Part shown: piece after piece, positions 39,650 to 47,481 of the stretch
Layout of the letters: the number at the start of each line of letters is the position of its first letter
How positions within the stretch are numbered: position 1 is the stretch's first letter
Assembly: GCA_965285935.1 (NCBI GenBank)
Contig: OZ260662.1
Location: forward strand, 107,818,001-107,882,000
Source: Ophelia neglecta
Lineage: Eukaryota
Direction: 5' to 3'
Length of the DNA stretch: 64,000 nt
The notes under the pieces: model-generated
What the model was told of the DNA's origin: nothing
What the model saw: the letters and a program-made list of their open reading frames with translations, nothing else
The model's database searches: none
Made by a program: the position numbers and the translations under genes

Positions 39650-42560
39650 TAAACCCCTCCCTCAGGGTGACACATACTGAGACGCCCACAGGGATAAAAC
39701 TGGGTTGGAAAAAACTGAAAACTGATGAAATACTAAATACTTACAGCTTATCAGTGTCCCGAGAACTGCAGTACGCCCTACCTGTGATCAGTGACTTAAA
39801 GACTGAAAACTGCATAGAACTATCGGCCAATAAAATCATGAATATCTTGACCACCTCGGCTGAGAATACAATCCCCACAGTCGGATTCAAAAGATGGATA
39901 AAACCATATTGGAACACCGACCTAAATGGGAAAAAAAAGCTCAACTGGCCGCCAGACAAGCCTGGGTAGCTGCAGGGAGGCCAAGAAACGCCGATAATGA
40001 AATATTCCTGCGGTACAAAACATACAAGACTCAATATAGAAAAGAGCGGAGGAAAGCCATACACGAGGAAGATGACAAGGCACAGGAAGAAATCATCTCT
40101 TCTGGGGAAATCAACCAAGACTATTACTGGCGCCTTGTGAAAAGAAAGCTGAAACCTGGTTGCGAGTTAAAAGTGCAACTCATTGAAGATGATAGCGGCC
40201 GACTACTGACTGACATCAATGAAATACGCCAAGAGTGGCGAAGCTATTTCATTAAACTCACTAGCCCAAATGAAGATGTCAGCTATCAAAGCGATTTTAA
40301 GACCATAGTTGATGGGCAAGTTGGCAAATACCTACATTCTTCCCAACTAGACGGAGACACCATACTCAACTTGCCAATCTCTATGGAAGAAATCGCCTAT
40401 ATGTCTTGTCGCATGAAGCTAGGGAAAGCCGGCGGAGTCGACGGATTAACTGCCGAGCACATTAAATATGGTGGCGACCGTCTCTTTGAGGCTTTGACTC
40501 TCCTGTTCAACGCTATCGTGCTCTTGGAATACATCCCACCCTGTTTTAAAAAAGCCATCGAGGTCCCAGTATTCAAAGGTGGCTCCAAAGACTCTAAGAA
40601 GAAAGACAGTTATAGAAAGATAAGCCTGCTGCCAGTCATCAGTAAACTCTTTGAAGGGATTATGAAGCAGAGGATCGAGGCATGGACGAAAAATAGCGGA
40701 CTGATAAATGATCAGCAGGGTGCGGCCCTAGAACACTGCTCCAGCAAACACCCTGCCTTACTTCTCAGGCAGACCGTTTACGAACTGTTAAGCAATGATC
40801 AGACTGTTTATGTAACACTCCTGGACTGCCGTAAAGCTTTCGATAGCGTCTGGATAAATGGGTTACTCTATAAGCTTTACTCCATTGGAATAAGAGGTAA
40901 ATCACTTCGACTTCTCAAGAATTGGTTCACCAATTTTATGTGTGCAGTTAGAATCGGTAACGACCTCTCGGCGTGGTTTGAGTCTCACCAAGGACTCCAT
41001 CAAGGCGGCCTATTGTCCATGCTATTGTTTATACTGTACTTTAACGACTTATTGAACGACCTATCAACAAGCAGAAAGGGTGCGATCATCTACGGGTTAG
41101 ACTCCTCCTGCCCAAGCTTCGCGGATGATGTAACTCTGGTGGCCACCGATCCCACTTACATGCAGGCTATGTTAGACACTGCACATACTTACGGTACAAA
41201 GTGGCGAATGGATTATAATGTAGCAAAATGCGAGACTTTGGTTTTCGGCCGTAACCAATCAAAAACACCGACTTACCTTGTGGGATCAGGCACAATACCC
41301 CTCACAGATAAGACTACACACTTAGGAACCCCTCTGGCTATATCTCGGAGAGCAATGCTACAGCTGCTCCAGGGAAGAACGGAGAAAGCCAGTAGAACTC
41401 TTCATTCCCTTCTAGGAAGTAGCACAACACATGGAGTTTTTAACTCACGTACCTTGTCTAAGTTGTACTGGTCAGTTGTGATCCCTGGTTTCCTGTACGG
41501 AATCGAACTCTTGGGCTTGTCATCTCACGAAATTAGTGTATTAGAAAAAGAGCATCGAACGATGGCTAAGTTGATACAAAACCTCTCACCTAGAACTTGT
41601 AACTCGGCAGTCCTCGCTTCCTTAGGGTGGCGAACAGTGGAGTCATATCTGGACTTACAGAGGCTCACATCTCTACGTGACTTGATGAGCCTCGACCCAA
41701 GAAATAGGTACAGAACACTGACCATTAGAGCTCTCACCAATTACTTTATAGATGGAATATTACCTCGAGATAGTCCCCTCGGTGTGTTCGTTCAATCTTA
41801 CGAAAAGTATGACCAACTAGACACCCTACGATCTTGGTTGAGATATGGTGCGACCCCCCCCAGAAATCAATGGAAGGCGCACTCAAGGAATATTACGCTA
41901 TCCGCTCTTGAAAACACTTGGCGGATTGAGTGTGAAATGTCCCCAACCCTGACTGTTTTCCGTCAACTGATGCCTAGATATGCCCCGTTTGAATGGTGGA
42001 AATATGCGTCAAGTATGAAAGCTGTACGAGGTACTCAGTCAATCCTAAAACTGGCCACAGAGACCTCCGCCTTATATTCACATGCTGGTAAATTTGTGAA
42101 CATAAACGGAAACTGGTGCCCTTTGTGTTTCAGTCCTGGGGACAACCTCAACCATTTCCTTACCCAGTGCGACGCTCTGACAGACATGCGAAACCCCCTA
42201 TACGCAAAACTAAACCCCAACCTATTGCAAACGAGGCCCAAGGTGATCATTGCATAACTCTGTTATCCTGTCAATCGTACACCCCTGAATCAAGGACGGC
42301 TGTGTTAGAATGCATAAATGATATGTACTATCAATATATATTAAGATCACGTACACGGAATGATATATAGTGGTTATCGAAATTAAATGTACATAAAATC
42401 GTAGTCTTACGAATTGCTGAAACCTCATAATAATATCGTATTTATGAACAATTGTTTGCTAATCTATTCTTCAATGTATTATACCTCTTAAACTTTAATG
42501 TATGTACTTTATCATCAAATTGTAACTCTTCGGAGAGCGGAGGATAAATAAAGTATATAT
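39650..42560 (+). mobile_element. 5'-truncated LINE A (RTEX-like) with long open ORF2 (RT plus C-terminal CCHC)
   Basis: 787-aa ORF with KAGGVDG, YRKISLL, LDCRKAFDSV, HQGGLLS, FADD and CPLC..HFLTQC. Frameshift at the A-run near 39935; 3' stem-loop plus AATAAA. Confidence 0.92.
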
Positions 42561-43096
42561 AACAGAGGTCAGTATACCATGATTGACCACATATGTGTCC
42601 CAGAGCAGTTGATACCGGATATTAGTTGTTGTTAGGTAATGTTAGATACTTTGAATACATCAGATCACTTACCTGTATACTGTAAAGTCACATGTCACCT
42701 TCCCAGGCATACCTGTGCATACAGAATCAACCTAAATTGGGGTAAAATTAATAAATTAGCCTATACCCAAGCTTTGGATAATAAACTTTTGACACACCAA
42801 CTCGGAGAAACGAACCTACCTGAAAAGAATATTGACGAACTGGCAAACATCCTTAGCGATGCTCTGATAAAAGCGTCGGATTGTGCTGTTCCGAAGTACG
42901 CTGTAAAGTCGTATCAGAACGACTACTGGGATGACGAGCTAGAATTGGCTCACAAACTTCAGCTACAAAAACGCACAGTGTGGGTTAAAGAAGGTAAACC
43001 CAGAGGTCCGGAATATGAGTCTTATAGGGAATACAAGTCGGCAAAAACGAAATTTCGAATAAAACAATATGCCAAGTCTAACAGCCGTTGGAGGTA

Positions 43097-45166
43097 CAGT
43101 TATGCTCGCGACAGGCCGGTCCGATATTTGCCGTCCTGACAAATTTCAGAGCCTCCGTTTGAGATTGCACACTAAAGGTGCGCTCGTAGCAATCTACAAT
43201 GGCGTTGAACCTTCTTTTCTGGGGGGAGATGGAAGGGCGACCTCTGCCCATCACATTACAGTCTGCAGCCCGCTCGGCACAGGAGTACATGGAGCGGGCC
43301 AGCTGCGACACGAAGACCCGGGCCGTGCAGTGATCCAAGATGAGCTTCCTCACTAGATCCGGATCTGCCTCGTAGTTTGGCTGAAGGACGTCCTGTTCAT
43401 TTACACATCGTGCGTCCTCGGGCTGTACAGGTCTGGGGGGCTGATGGGCGGCCTGGGCCGGCGCAGGGGGCTGGACGTGGGGAAGTGCCTCAGGCTATCC
43501 CCCCTGTACCGGCAGTGGTTGGGGGGGAACCTCGATGACGCGTTCTGTTAAATATACATTGTATTTCTAGTTAAAAGTACAGTGGTCCCCCGTTTTGACA
43601 TGTTTATGATACCAATATATTTAAAGTGTTCTTTGGTCTTCCCTTAAGGTTAATCACTTGAGGGGCCTAGTGGCTTTTCTGCGTTCTAGGAAACAATATA
43701 TAGACTTAAAAACTTACCACTCGGGCAGAGTATCCGTGCTGAAAATGTTTCCTCTTTATGGTCCACCTCTACCACTGCATCCTTCTTGATAAACTCTCTC
43801 GCACTCGTAATCTTCTTGATGTCAACTACTGAGGTGGTGTCATCACTGTCACAGTAAACGAGGGCGCACGCCAACTATGGAAAGTCGCTAGTGAAGGTAG
43901 GTAATATTTTCGTACTTAACTTATTACACCTTTGGTCTTAATTGTCTAGGCTTATATATTGATCACATCCCCAAGGTAATACTTTATAAAATTTCTTACG
44001 CGAAATTACTGGATTGGAACTTTACATTTTTAATTAACATTGGTCAAACCTATGGTATTTCACATTAATAGTCGGTTAAGTTAAACACGCAAACATTTGC
44101 CTCTTATTGCGTAATGCCTGTATTGTTCTGCTGTATCGACCATACACAAGCTGTGTACTAGTGAATGTGCGTCTTTGTTTACTGAAATTCAGTTTGAACG
44201 CCCAGTTGTGAACCGGCATTGTTCTCTGTTTGTTTAGTTAACAAGTTTGCGGCTATTCCAAGGCGTCGGATATCTTTGATGTGGATGTGAAGATTGAATC
44301 ATCTAGTGAACATGAAGTAGGCTTAGATAAGCCTCGCTGGCAATAAGTGATGCGCCGCTACTGCTCGAAACAATATTTTTGTCACTCTGTTGAACCTTGT
44401 TTTGCTTTTTCAGGTGCTGCCGAAAGTTTGTGAGGCAAACGGAGGCTATACTGGGTGCTAAATGGCCCTCTTGGATGAATAAAGCATATATATTACGAGC
44501 TACGAACATTGTTTTGTCCATTCCCATACACTTACAATAAAGCATTTAACGGGCTACGAGCATTGTTATGTATATTCCCATAGGCCTACATCTTCCCTAT
44601 TTTGCTCCGTACTTTGTTAAAATAGTAATTACATAAGTTGAAAGTCTGGTATCACTAAAAAAATTTTACTACATAATAATGATACGATTGTGAAAATAAG
44701 TTAAATTGTTTCTAAACCGCTTATGGTATTCCGATATATTGGAACTCGGGCGAACACAGTGTTGAAAGCCGTTAAAGTTGAGACTAGCCAAATAAGCCGC
44801 GTCATAGATTATTGGTGCTCTATTAACATGAAACAATAAATACTTGCATATATCGGGTGAATATGCATACTAGCACTAGTCGCGCTACTTTCAGCCTAAT
44901 TTTACTTCACATTCGACCGTATTCAGACCAAGGACAAGAGGGACTATTTTATGTTCTCACTGATACATGTACATGTATGTAGCAGTGAAGCGTCATTTAC
45001 CGTCGATGTTGCAATAATTTTGCGGTGCACTTAGGACACGACCGCAATAATATTGCGGTTATGTCGACCAGGTATACGACATTATTGCAACATTATTGAG
45101 ACCTCCATGCGACATTATTGCGACCTCATGTTGCAATATCGGACCAGCCTGTCGCGAGCATAACTG
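43097..45166. mobile_element. Non-autonomous TIR DNA transposon with TA target duplication carrying a spliced BEN-domain gene
   Basis: About 32-bp TIRs CAGTTATGCTCGCGACAGGC(C/T)GGTCCGATATT, TA on both sides, subterminal ATTATTGC repeats at 45005-45140. Confidence 0.9.
43130..43874 (-). pseudogene. Transposon cargo gene: small N-terminal domain exon (43874-43718) plus Pro-rich linker and BEN-like domain exon (43544-about 43130), truncated at the TIR
   Basis: GT-AG intron 43717-43545. FVSQLARSMYSCAERAADCNVMGRGRPSISPQKRRFNAIVD fits the BEN consensus. One frame disruption near 43500. Confidence 0.65.
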
Positions 45167-47481
45167 TATGTTCGTAGAAATCGTAAGACCCCAGAGTCTC
45201 TACACCTAATCAAAAACGGGGATGCTACCTACCGTACACCTGTGGAACTGCGGGATTTTTGGGGAGAACATTTCAACCAGCTTCTCAATGAACAACACTG
45301 TGAATCGTGACTGCTGTCAGAGGCTTTCCCAATGGTAAAGCACCGGGGTGGGACAATATTCGTTACGAACATCTGAAATACGCAAGTCCGATCTGTGTAC
45401 GGATGCTATGCCATCTGTTCAACGAAATGACTTCTGCTGTATACATCCCTAAGGCCATCAAGCTTGGAGTGATTATTCCCAGGTACAAAGGTAAAAACAA
45501 ACAGAAAACAGACAAGAATTCTTATAGAGGTATCACGCTATTACCAACAATTATAAAATTGTACGAAAAGCTGATATGGACCAGATGGCAACCACTCCTC
45601 CATGACATACAATTTCCATGCAAATTACAGCACTCGAAAAAGGAATCCAGCAATATAATGTTGTCATTTTCTGTTCAAGAATCCATTCACCACTTTATAG
45701 AAAGGGGAAGCAAGGTCTATGTGGCCCTGCTGGACTCTGAAAAGGCGTTCGATCGTGTCTGCTGGGATGGCCTTCTTCTGAAGCTCTTCCGGTTAGGTGT
45801 CACCGGTAAACTTTGGCATCTGATCCGAATGACCCTAGTTGAATCCACAATGTCTGTACTGGTCAGCGGCTCGATGTCAAACGAGTTTCCAATATCTCGT
45901 AGTATTAAACAGGGAGGCATGCTCTCCATGTTTTTGTACTCTGTATCCTACATGGACATACACGAGCACGTTGGAAGTAACGGAGATAGTCGTAGATGGC
46001 ATAGACGTGGGCTCACCTACCTTAGCAGACAATACCGCCCTGATGTCCCCAACCGTCTCAGGGTTGCAGCGAATGCTGGACTCCGCTGCTTTGTACTCAA
46101 GAATGTGGCGCCAACGCTTCTCTGTAGCTAAAAGCAGAGTATTAGTATTTGGTGAGAAGAAAATCAGTAATGCCAAGAACATGGAACTGCGCCAGTGGAA
46201 GCTCTACTCGGAGAATCTGGAAGAGGTCACACACGAGACCCACGTGGGTATTACCTTCTGCTCGTACTTATCGTCTTCTCTGAGAACAACGGAGGCGTGT
46301 AAAAAAGCGAGGAGACAAATGGCAGGCATGGCTGCAGTGGGCATAAACCCACATGCCTGAACCCACTCACATCGGCCGGCCTCTGGACTAAAATTGGCAT
46401 TCCCTCCTTTCTCCATGGAGCCGAACTGTGGAATGACCTATCTCCACAGGAACTGCAAGACTTGGAACGAACTCAAAAGTTCATCGCGAAAAGCATACAG
46501 GGCTTCCCATTGAGAATGCATGACGAAATGGCGAGGGGTATGCTTGGGTGGATGTCTATTCAAAGCATAATTGAGAATAGGAAATTGATGCTTTTAAATA
46601 AATTTTGTAACTTGTCAGAAAACCACTTGGCAAAAGATGTATTTAACCTTAGATTGCGATCATACTTGGAGAGATCACGTAAAGGTTTGAAAGTCAATGG
46701 TTTTGTTCCTGATATTTTTAATGTATGTAAGAAATATGAATTGTCGGAATACTTACATGTATACTGTGATGCTGGTAGTTTTCCATCGAAATCCGAGTGA
46801 AAATTGATAATAAATGAGGGAATCTGTGCTTTAGAAACACATCAGTGGGCTTTTTTGATGTCAAACAAACCCGGGTGTCACGTACTATGCTTATGGGGAA
46901 GAGTTGTCTCCAACTGTTCTGTACCAGTTTTCTAGACGGAATATAGAGTTACAGAACGGCGTAATTAACCTACTGTGGCTCTTCTTTTTATACAACAACA
47001 GTATAAAAGTATCATATGCTCTGTGTAAATCTGAGGTACTATGTCCATTTAGTCATTTGTTTTGTAAAGGTGGTTGTGCTTTGTTAGCAGACGTGCGTCA
47101 CCTATTTTGGACAGAGCTGTGTAACTCAATTAATGTGGATACTTATGTAAAGTTGGATCACTTGGTGGATATAGGTCTGATTGTTACTCTTTTAGGCAGT
47201 GAAAGTTGCATTGTTATGGATAAATCTGATCTGGATACTATATTGAAACAAGTGTGTATATTCTATGGGCCTTTCTGTAAATCAATGTACACATATAGTT
47301 ATGTGAACCCATCGGAGCGTACCTACATTGATTGAATCGCCGATGTAGGCATCGGTATTATTGTTGTATATATATTTCACCCTCTACATAACTATGCTTG
47401 TTAACATTGTTTGAATTACTGTATTGAATGTAATGCTCTCATTGAGTTGAGGATAATAAAACAATCAATCAATCAATCAAT

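What the first reader, a model, noticed from the sequence alone, without database searches (positions are those of the whole stretch)
43097..45166. TA-targeting TIR transposon carrying a spliced BEN-domain gene
Seen: about 32-bp TIRs starting CAGTT, a TA duplication, and exact restoration of the host LINE frame on removal, so the boundaries are well defined. The right end has clustered direct and inverted ATTATTGC subterminal repeats. There is no transposase; instead a minus-strand intron-containing gene encodes a small beta-rich N-terminal domain (ALVYCDSDDTTSVVDIKKI..VEVDHKEETFSARIL), a Pro-rich linker and a BEN-like domain that runs into the left TIR. Established: BEN domains bind DNA and act in chromatin regulation, and occur in viruses and as transposon accessory proteins. 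Subterminal repeats with an accessory DNA-binding ORF are CACTA/CMC traits, whereas CAG ends with TA are Tc1/mariner-like. Inference: a deletion derivative of a poorly described two-component family in which the BEN protein may bind the ATTATTGC repeats or counter silencing.
Basis: partly seen in the sequence, partly recalled or inferred. Interest (0 to 1): 0.72.

Follow-up and report, generated by a model that had tools for sequence, protein, structure and literature searches.

The report
Two-gene Tc1 transposons with BEN helper
This is a dead, heavily deleted copy of a cut-and-paste jumping gene whose relatives in the same genome, unlike ordinary one-gene members of their group, carry a second conserved gene for a predicted DNA- and chromatin-binding protein that likely helps the transposon stay active against host silencing.

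Summary
The ends are real: 32-bp TIRs, TA at 57 of 59 family termini, and empty sites in sister LINE copies. The element is not CACTA/CMC-like. It is a remnant, with four deletions, of a roughly 7-kb Tc1-type element whose intron-bearing transposase is DD34E. The 'spliced gene' is a deletion chimera with no start codon and no end of the BEN recognition helix. The real finding is the parent. Eight families in this genome, with different TIRs and 42-89% transposase identity, carry the same head-to-head second gene: Tudor-like lobe, coiled coil, BEN-like domain. Both genes are open in three families, the second gene is under purifying selection, and the two trees agree. Pfam BEN misses it, but the five best fold matches are all BEN domains. 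A further family carries a canonical Pfam BEN gene tail-to-tail. Best mechanism (inferred, about 45%): a trans-acting chromatin helper against silencing. No DNA binding or expression was shown, and no other species was confirmed. My paper searches found no such element; Repbase could not be checked. The scan noted two-gene pogo/mariner elements before on other DNA, with a different (HIRAN-like) helper.

The parts
43095..43096 (.). Left TA of the target-site duplication
   Evidence: single TA in 8 of 9 readable empty LINE copies
43097..43128 (+). Left TIR, 32 bp, starts CAGTT; joined directly to the helper gene because about 1.46 kb of the left arm, with its repeat array, is deleted
43130..43543 (-). 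Remnant of the helper gene's last exon: Pro-rich linker and BEN-like domain, lacking the coiled coil and the last 16 residues (including D102, N105, R109 of the predicted recognition helix)
   Evidence: 97% identical to L049; fold from the complete domain
43718..43864 (-). Remnant of helper exon 1: Tudor-like four-strand lobe, first nine codons and start codon lost, GT donor kept
   Evidence: fold of the family alignment
43865..43896 (+). 3' end of Tc1 transposase exon 2 with GT donor
43955..43975 (+). 3' end of transposase exon 4 with GT donor
44414..44461 (+). Whole last exon (5) of the transposase, 15 codons and stop
   Evidence: same exon in L039 and L101
45005..45134 (.). Right subterminal array of short direct and inverted GCAATA/TATTGC-type repeats
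45135..45166 (-). Right TIR, 32 bp
45167..45168 (.). Right TA of the target-site duplication
42636..43096 (+). Host LINE ORF2, part left of the insertion; 57-bp deletion after 43088 relative to sister copies
45169..46800 (+). Host LINE ORF2, part right of the insertion (reverse transcriptase, frameshifted)
   Evidence: RVT_1 E=9e-12; ORFs

Best explanation
The window holds a dead, four-times-deleted copy of a Tc1-type DD34E transposon whose family carries a second, conserved, head-to-head gene predicted to encode a Tudor-like lobe, a coiled coil and a BEN-fold domain, which likely acts in trans as a chromatin helper that keeps the element's ends and promoter open against host silencing. Shown: TA targeting, TIRs, DD34E transposase, the second gene in eight families, purifying selection on it, matching trees, and spread of copies that lack both genes. 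Predicted: splicing of both genes, the two folds, the coiled coil. Inferred: the transposase alone does the cutting and joining, as it keeps its own HTH domains; the helper oligomerises through the coiled coil, binds short GC-core repeats at both ends or in the shared promoter through the BEN helix, and contacts chromatin through the Tudor-like lobe. The left arm of the window copy was probably lost after insertion. Odds: identity and conserved second gene about 0.93; anti-silencing role about 0.45.
For: Family: 64 TIR matches, 0 for the reversed control; TA at 57 of 59 distinct termini. L049 holds both genes; L039 holds an open 346-aa DD34E transposase with four GT-AG introns. Both genes open by predicted splicing in L101 (346+465 aa), L111 (348+397 aa), L115 (342+429 aa). 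DD34E in 8 of 8 families; DDE_3 and HTH_Tnp_Tc3_2 above Pfam cut-offs in L121 and L124. BEN part, F1-F4 pairs: pN 0.20-0.29, pS 0.72-0.85. Trees share the nesting F5,(F6,(F7,F8)); Spearman 0.93. Fold: top five of 48,161 chains are BEN domains, Z 8.1-9.0, rmsd 2.7-4.0, 83-93 aligned, next 5.8; atlas BEN clusters 0.95, 203 of 256 features. N-terminal lobe: ARID4B Tudor Z 9.0, rmsd 1.5, 55 aligned, next non-Tudor 4.4. D, N, R at i, i+3, i+7 of the last helix invariant in 23 of 23 sequences, the spacing of NACC1's base-reading D462/T465/R469 (PMC11472053). One deletion removing the helper and half the transposase is shared by 7 of 21 two-ended copies. End arrays above all 60 shuffles in 10 of 10 families. 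Precedent for a transposon anti-silencing protein with family-specific repeats: VANC (PMC5735166 abstract).
Against: No Pfam BEN hit for F1-F8 or for 32 outside homologues. Foldseek gave no E<=0.001 for either domain, and Z under about 13 can be generic for helical domains. The models rest on 9 and 6 sequences. End arrays are not specific: 4 of 5 unrelated inverted-repeat elements have them too. No aromatic residue is invariant in the Tudor-like lobe, so methyl-lysine reading is unsupported. Copies with a transposase and no helper exist (L039, L140). In 14 of 20 loci around distant transposase hits no helper piece was seen within 9.9 kb. BEN-solo proteins are also known as repressors. The gene pair was seen in one genome only.
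Confidence: 0.5

Rival explanations
1. The helper is part of the transposition machine: oligomers bind the arrays at both ends and pair them or load the transposase, as the second proteins of Harbinger and En/Spm are held to do (roles recalled).
For: Arrays at both ends in 10 of 10 families; 20 of 21 two-ended copies keep at least 228 bp on the left and all keep at least 459 bp on the right; coiled coil plus DNA-binding fold; co-divergence.
Against: The transposase keeps its own HTH domains; the related ISY100 transposase works alone (PMC2170065, abstract start); arrays occur in unrelated elements.
Confidence: 0.2
2. The helper is a self-brake: a BEN repressor that binds the shared divergent promoter or the ends and limits transposase output, sparing the host.
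For: Head-to-head layout with about 0.4-1.1 kb between start codons in L101, L111, L115 suits shared control; Drosophila BEN-solo proteins act in repression and insulation (10.1101/593830, abstract start); derivatives that keep the BEN exon and lack the transposase exist (L041, L112).
Against: F10 has the BEN gene tail-to-tail with no shared promoter; most amplified F1 derivatives lost the BEN exon (1 of 20 other two-ended copies keeps it whole).
Confidence: 0.2
3. The gene is captured host cargo with no role for the element.
For: BEN-plus-coiled-coil proteins are ordinary host factors (PMC11472053); 3 of 17 stand-alone hits could not be tied to an element by flanking DNA.
Against: Purifying selection on both domains across families with saturated synonymous sites; same layout and phase-1 first intron across families; matching trees; 14 of 17 stand-alone hits lie in element DNA.
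Confidence: 0.05
4. The element belongs to CACTA/EnSpm/CMC.
For: Subterminal repeats and a second DNA-binding gene.
Against: The parent encodes DDE_3 DD34E with Tc3-type HTH; ends read CAGT, not CACTA; target is TA at 57 of 59 ends.
Confidence: 0.01

Closest known systems
Tc1 family (DD34E) of IS630/Tc1/mariner (PMC7325037; passages and part 1 of 4 of Results read)
   Same: TA target, TIRs of about 20-36 bp, 342-348 aa transposase with HTH domains and DD34E.
   Different: That paper describes Tc1 as one ORF and about 1.3 kb. These elements reach 5-7 kb, have a second conserved gene, up to four transposase introns, and repeat arrays at both ends.
TLEWI, Tc1-like elements with introns (10.1101/656579; parts 1-2 of 4 read)
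   Same: Tc1-like transposase split by spliceosomal introns.
   Different: TLEWI are DD36E, mostly lack TIRs and TSDs, and no second gene is described in the parts read; these are DD34E with near-perfect TIRs, and two families are intronless.
TBE and Tec of ciliates (passage in PMC7325037)
   Same: DD34E Tc1/mariner-type elements with extra ORFs.
   Different: Three ORFs (zinc-finger protein, recombinase), TIRs of about 80 or 700 bp, ciliate hosts; no BEN or Tudor-like gene named.
VANC of VANDAL Mutator elements (PMC5735166 abstract; PMC6446971 passages)
   Same: Transposon-encoded accessory protein with family-specific short repeats; model for the proposed role.
   Different: Other superfamily, plants, unrelated protein; anti-silencing is proven there and only inferred here.
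BEN-domain host factors BANP, BEND3, BEND6, NACC1, Bsg25A (PMC11472053 passages)
   Same: Predicted fold, C-terminal position behind a coiled coil, D/N/R spacing in the last helix.
   Different: 6-14% identity, below Pfam detection, joined to a Tudor-like lobe, and carried inside a mobile element.
Hybrid Tudor lobe HTD-2 of ARID4A/ARID4B/KDM4 (PMC8038949 passages)
   Same: Four-strand lobe; the match covers ARID4B 29-84, and HTD-2 is 35-86.
   Different: Stand-alone lobe, no invariant aromatic residues; ligand unknown.
L31 elements (DD37E); a two-ORF subgroup is recalled, not found in the library
   Same: If the recollection is right, ITm elements of marine invertebrates with a second ORF.
   Different: DD37E, a separate minor family; I could not compare the second ORF.

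Membership tests
Tc1 (DD34E) | TA target-site duplication | tested here: met
   57 of 59 termini; 8 of 9 readable empty sites
Tc1 (DD34E) | Short TIRs of about 30 bp | tested here: met
   32 bp in the window; 19-36 bp in nine families
Tc1 (DD34E) | DD34E catalytic triad | tested here: met
   8 of 8 families; L039 whole frame; depends on predicted splicing in six, not in the two intronless families
Tc1 (DD34E) | N-terminal HTH DNA-binding domains | tested here: met
   HTH_Tnp_Tc3_2 46.7 and 42.2 bits over a 31.5 cut-off in L121, L124; F1 exon 1 only below cut-off
Tc1 (DD34E) | Single ORF, about 1.3 kb | tested here: not met
   Two genes, full elements 5.3-7 kb; hence a variant, not an ordinary member
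Tc1 (DD34E) | Placement inside the Tc1 clade on a tree with reference transposases | not tested
   Only an eight-family internal tree was built; nearest named proteins are 'Tcb2 transposase' at 37-43%
TLEWI | Introns in the transposase gene | tested here: met
   2-4 predicted introns in F1-F6; none in F7, F8
TLEWI | DD36E triad | tested here: not met
   Spacer is 34
TLEWI | Lack of TIRs and TSDs | tested here: not met
CACTA/EnSpm/CMC | CACTA-type termini (abstract start of PMC1636069) | tested here: not met
   All ten families start CAGT
CACTA/EnSpm/CMC | CMC-type transposase | tested here: not met
   DDE_3 / Tc3-type HTH instead
TBE/Tec | Three ORFs with zinc-finger or recombinase gene, TIRs of 80 or 700 bp | tested here: not met
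   Two genes, short TIRs
BEN domain | Pfam PF10523 above cut-off | tested here: not met
   0 of 9 aligned members, 0 of 2 F7/F8 pieces, 0 of 32 outside homologues; met only by the F10 gene, 31.9 over 23.2 bits
BEN domain | Helical BEN fold with long C-terminal helix | tested here: met
   Model pLDDT 78; five best matches all BEN, Z 8.1-9.0 against 5.8 next; Foldseek not significant but highest TM scores are BEN
BEN domain | Base-reading residues in helix 5 | tested here: inconclusive
   Invariant D/N/R with NACC1's spacing; residue-level register not shown by the aligner
BEN domain | Sequence-specific DNA binding | not testable with these tools
   Needs EMSA, SELEX or ChIP
Hybrid Tudor HTD-2 | Four-strand lobe fold | tested here: met
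   pLDDT 83; Z 9.0, 7.6, 7.4 for ARID4B, RBBP1, JMJD2C, next 4.4
Hybrid Tudor HTD-2 | Aromatic box for methyl-lysine | tested here: inconclusive
   No invariant aromatic in 6 sequences; cage positions not mapped on the model

The most novel reading that the evidence does not exclude
A clade of animal Tc1 transposons encodes its own sequence-specific chromatin factor (Tudor-like lobe, coiled coil, BEN) that shields the element from silencing, an animal counterpart of plant VANC, gained or rearranged at least twice; such elements may also be a mobile reservoir from which host BEN genes arose.
Probability: 0.35. Interest if true: 0.85.

Novelty: new variant of a known kind. Interest (0 to 1): 0.67.

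Why it matters
Tc1 elements are the textbook one-gene transposons and the basis of gene-transfer tools. A clade that keeps a second, selected gene built from chromatin-type domains suggests a counter-defence or control layer not described for them in the papers I could search. Three families have both genes open and near-identical copies (98.7% and 99.5% in two pairs), so the role can be tested directly with and without the helper. It also ties BEN domains, known from host regulators and DNA viruses, to a defined transposon lineage.

Tried and rejected
Pfam scans of the window pieces and homologues: no BEN hit. Sequence search of solved structures with the BEN alignment: three chance hits, E 0.28-0.4. 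First protein search with the last exon: nothing. Foldseek for both domains: no E<=0.001. Atlas search with the N-terminal exon: unnamed clusters only, recognition below the mark. Metagenome scan for gene context in other organisms: 26 pattern matches, none confirmed; viral contigs were not scanned. Sequencing runs: no RNA holder listed; this says nothing on expression. Contigs of three runs of one sample showed the empty LINE site and loose ends at the window's deletion points; not independent support. Complex prediction of F7 transposase with the coiled-coil/BEN piece: no verdict, score 0.02. My first L049 gene model failed on coordinates and one exon was mis-set, corrected. The idea that end arrays mark BEN-bearing elements was tested and weakened. 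The two founding BEN papers (2008 description, 2023 structural survey) were not held; they, and supplements of any paper (none read), may mention transposon links.

Full report
Observation. The element spans 43097-45166. Its TIRs are 32 bp with one mismatch, and TA flanks both. Removing it with one TA gives an open LINE frame. Of 11 other LINE copies, 9 could be read across the site; 8 have one TA and one has TT. The same comparison shows a 57-bp in-frame deletion in the window's LINE, 8 bp left of the target. The repeats at the right end are present. Neither coding piece hits Pfam.

The family. A search of the own genome gave 86 DNA matches and 64 TIR matches against 0 for the control. Of 40 stretches fetched, 20 held both TIRs (2.7-8.3 kb); two longer copies were fetched in halves and not counted. 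TA precedes 57 of 59 distinct termini. The last 400 bp of 21 copies are 98.2% identical on average. The copy with most interior, L049 (about 6.7 kb, right TIR lost), holds an intron-bearing transposase and, head to head, a multi-exon second gene. In L049 the transposase has one stop and the second gene a frameshift. L039 holds an open 346-residue DD34E transposase with four GT-AG introns between both TIRs, and no second gene. This family is F1.

The window copy. Against L049 it has four deletions. The left arm is gone after base 33. The middle of the second gene is gone, with its acceptor and coiled coil. The shared promoter, both start codons and most of the transposase are gone. Three transposase remnants stay on the plus strand. 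The BEN-like frame ends in the TIR and lacks the last 16 residues. The window is the only one of 21 two-ended copies with under 228 bp of left end, so that loss probably came after insertion (inference). One other deletion is shared by 7 of 21 copies at different places, which shows that copies without either gene were moved in trans.

The second gene is conserved. Its last exon gave 68 matches in the genome. I fetched 20 diverged loci: 8 have Tc1 transposase exons head to head within 9.9 kb and 12 do not. Of 17 stand-alone hits tested later, 14 align to element DNA, and 3 could not be tied to an element. From the other side, 20 loci around distant transposase hits (of 103 matches) gave 3 with the BEN-like domain head to head, 1 with only the N-terminal exon, 1 with a convergent BEN, 1 with a decayed BEN-like piece downstream, and 14 with none. 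In all, eight families with different TIRs (F1-F8) carry the pair; F3 and F7 are known from partial copies, and F9 only without transposase. Both genes are open by predicted splicing in L101, L111 and L115, with a phase-1 first intron in the second gene at codon 58-62. F7 and F8 have intronless transposases and the same second-gene plan. All eight have DD34E. Between F1-F4, the BEN part has pN 0.20-0.29 and pS 0.72-0.85, the N-terminal exon pN/pS 0.17-0.26 (F1, F2, F4), transposase exons 0.06-0.15; synonymous sites are saturated, so dN/dS could mostly not be computed, and one distant pair had an interval that includes 1. The two trees share the nesting of F5, F6 and F7+F8; the order inside F1-F4 is unresolved. 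This shows shared descent of the pair, not interaction. A tenth family (L154, 6966 bp, TA-flanked, 26 TIR matches) has a Tc1-type transposase and a tail-to-tail gene ending in a BEN domain above the Pfam cut-off.

What the protein is. Pfam BEN misses F1-F8 and 32 outside homologues. The atlas ranks BEN clusters first (0.95; BEN on 20-33% of members). A model from 9 sequences has pLDDT 78. Foldseek found nothing significant, though its best TM scores are BEN domains. The wide search ranked five BEN domains first, Z 8.1-9.0, ahead of 5.8; the tool warns that such Z can be generic for helical domains, but the agreement of five rows and the gap support BEN. D, N and R in the last helix are invariant in 23 sequences and spaced like NACC1's base-reading residues (PMC11472053, passages). 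The N-terminal exon models as four strands (pLDDT 83) and matches the HTD-2 lobe of ARID4B, RBBP1 and JMJD2C. That lobe binds methyl-lysine in JMJD2 and does not in ARID4A (PMC8038949, passages); no aromatic residue is invariant here. A coiled coil before the BEN part is suggested by weak hits to coiled-coil families only. Outside homologues at 29-48% identity exist, without names or context, so the pairing is shown in one genome only.

How it likely works. The transposase has its own HTH domains and a full triad, so it probably cuts and joins alone. The second protein is built from chromatin-type parts and is selected while riding in the element. I put about 45% on a trans-acting helper that keeps ends and promoter open against silencing, by analogy with VANC (abstract), 20% on end pairing, 20% on a self-brake, 5% on cargo. 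All ten families have end arrays above shuffles, but so do 4 of 5 unrelated inverted-repeat elements, and the helix residues stay fixed while motifs differ. The arrays therefore do not prove BEN binding.

What is known. PMC7325037 (passages, part 1 of 4 of Results) describes Tc1 as single-ORF and about 1.3 kb, with extra ORFs in TBE and Tec. TLEWI (parts 1-2 of 4) are DD36E and lack TIRs. Ten searches of the library (listings and abstract starts only) showed no Tc1/mariner element with a BEN gene; one search listed all 19 papers holding both 'BEN domain' and 'transposase'. Term look-ups in PMC6431247, PMC12730594, PMC9587614, PMC10294476, PMC10789644 and PMC6446971 (passages) added none. Subscription papers, Repbase and Dfam were not available; a two-ORF L31 subgroup is recalled only. 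Earlier scan notes hold two-gene pogo/mariner elements with a HIRAN-like helper in other genomes and no look-alike of this sequence.

Verdict. The window copy is a dead remnant. Its parent clade is a new variant of Tc1-type DD34E elements with a conserved Tudor-like/coiled-coil/BEN gene. Interest 0.67.

Noticed in passing
L154:2190-9155 (G000:C3:2024789-2031754); copies L129, L153: TA-flanked 7-kb element with a Tc1-type DD34E transposase and a tail-to-tail gene with a Cys/His-rich exon, beta-rich exons, a likely coiled coil and a canonical Pfam BEN domain; 26 TIR matches in the genome.
   Followed up: partly
window 43088-43089: The host LINE copy has a 57-bp in-frame deletion 8 bp left of the TA target relative to 9 sister copies.
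   Followed up: yes
window 39864-42257 (+): A second, different LINE ORF2 fragment, 797 aa open, RVT_1 E=2.6e-26, just upstream of the interrupted LINE.
   Followed up: no
L039 (G000:C5:98103137-98107747) and L140: Copies with both TIRs and transposase exons but no helper gene; the L039 transposase is fully open.
   Followed up: partly
L044 (G000:C8:510301-517808): F1 copy with an internal tandem duplication of about 2.9 kb inside a 14.6-kb TIR pair.
   Followed up: no
L031, L059, L060: Another multi-kilobase repeat is nested inside several F1 copies; not classified.
   Followed up: no
L122:2737-5538, L136:6665-7422, L169:1554-2655, L165:1026-3991: Other inverted-repeat elements beginning TACAG or TACAC, with their own end repeat arrays, nested in or beside these loci; used only as controls.
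   Followed up: partly
L162:6599-6799, L158:6200-6501, L132:2562-2795: BEN-like hits that could not be tied to an element by flanking DNA; decayed copies or possible stand-alone genes.
   Followed up: partly
window 44490-44590: Two copies of a 47-nt direct repeat (79%) just after the transposase stop codon.
   Followed up: no
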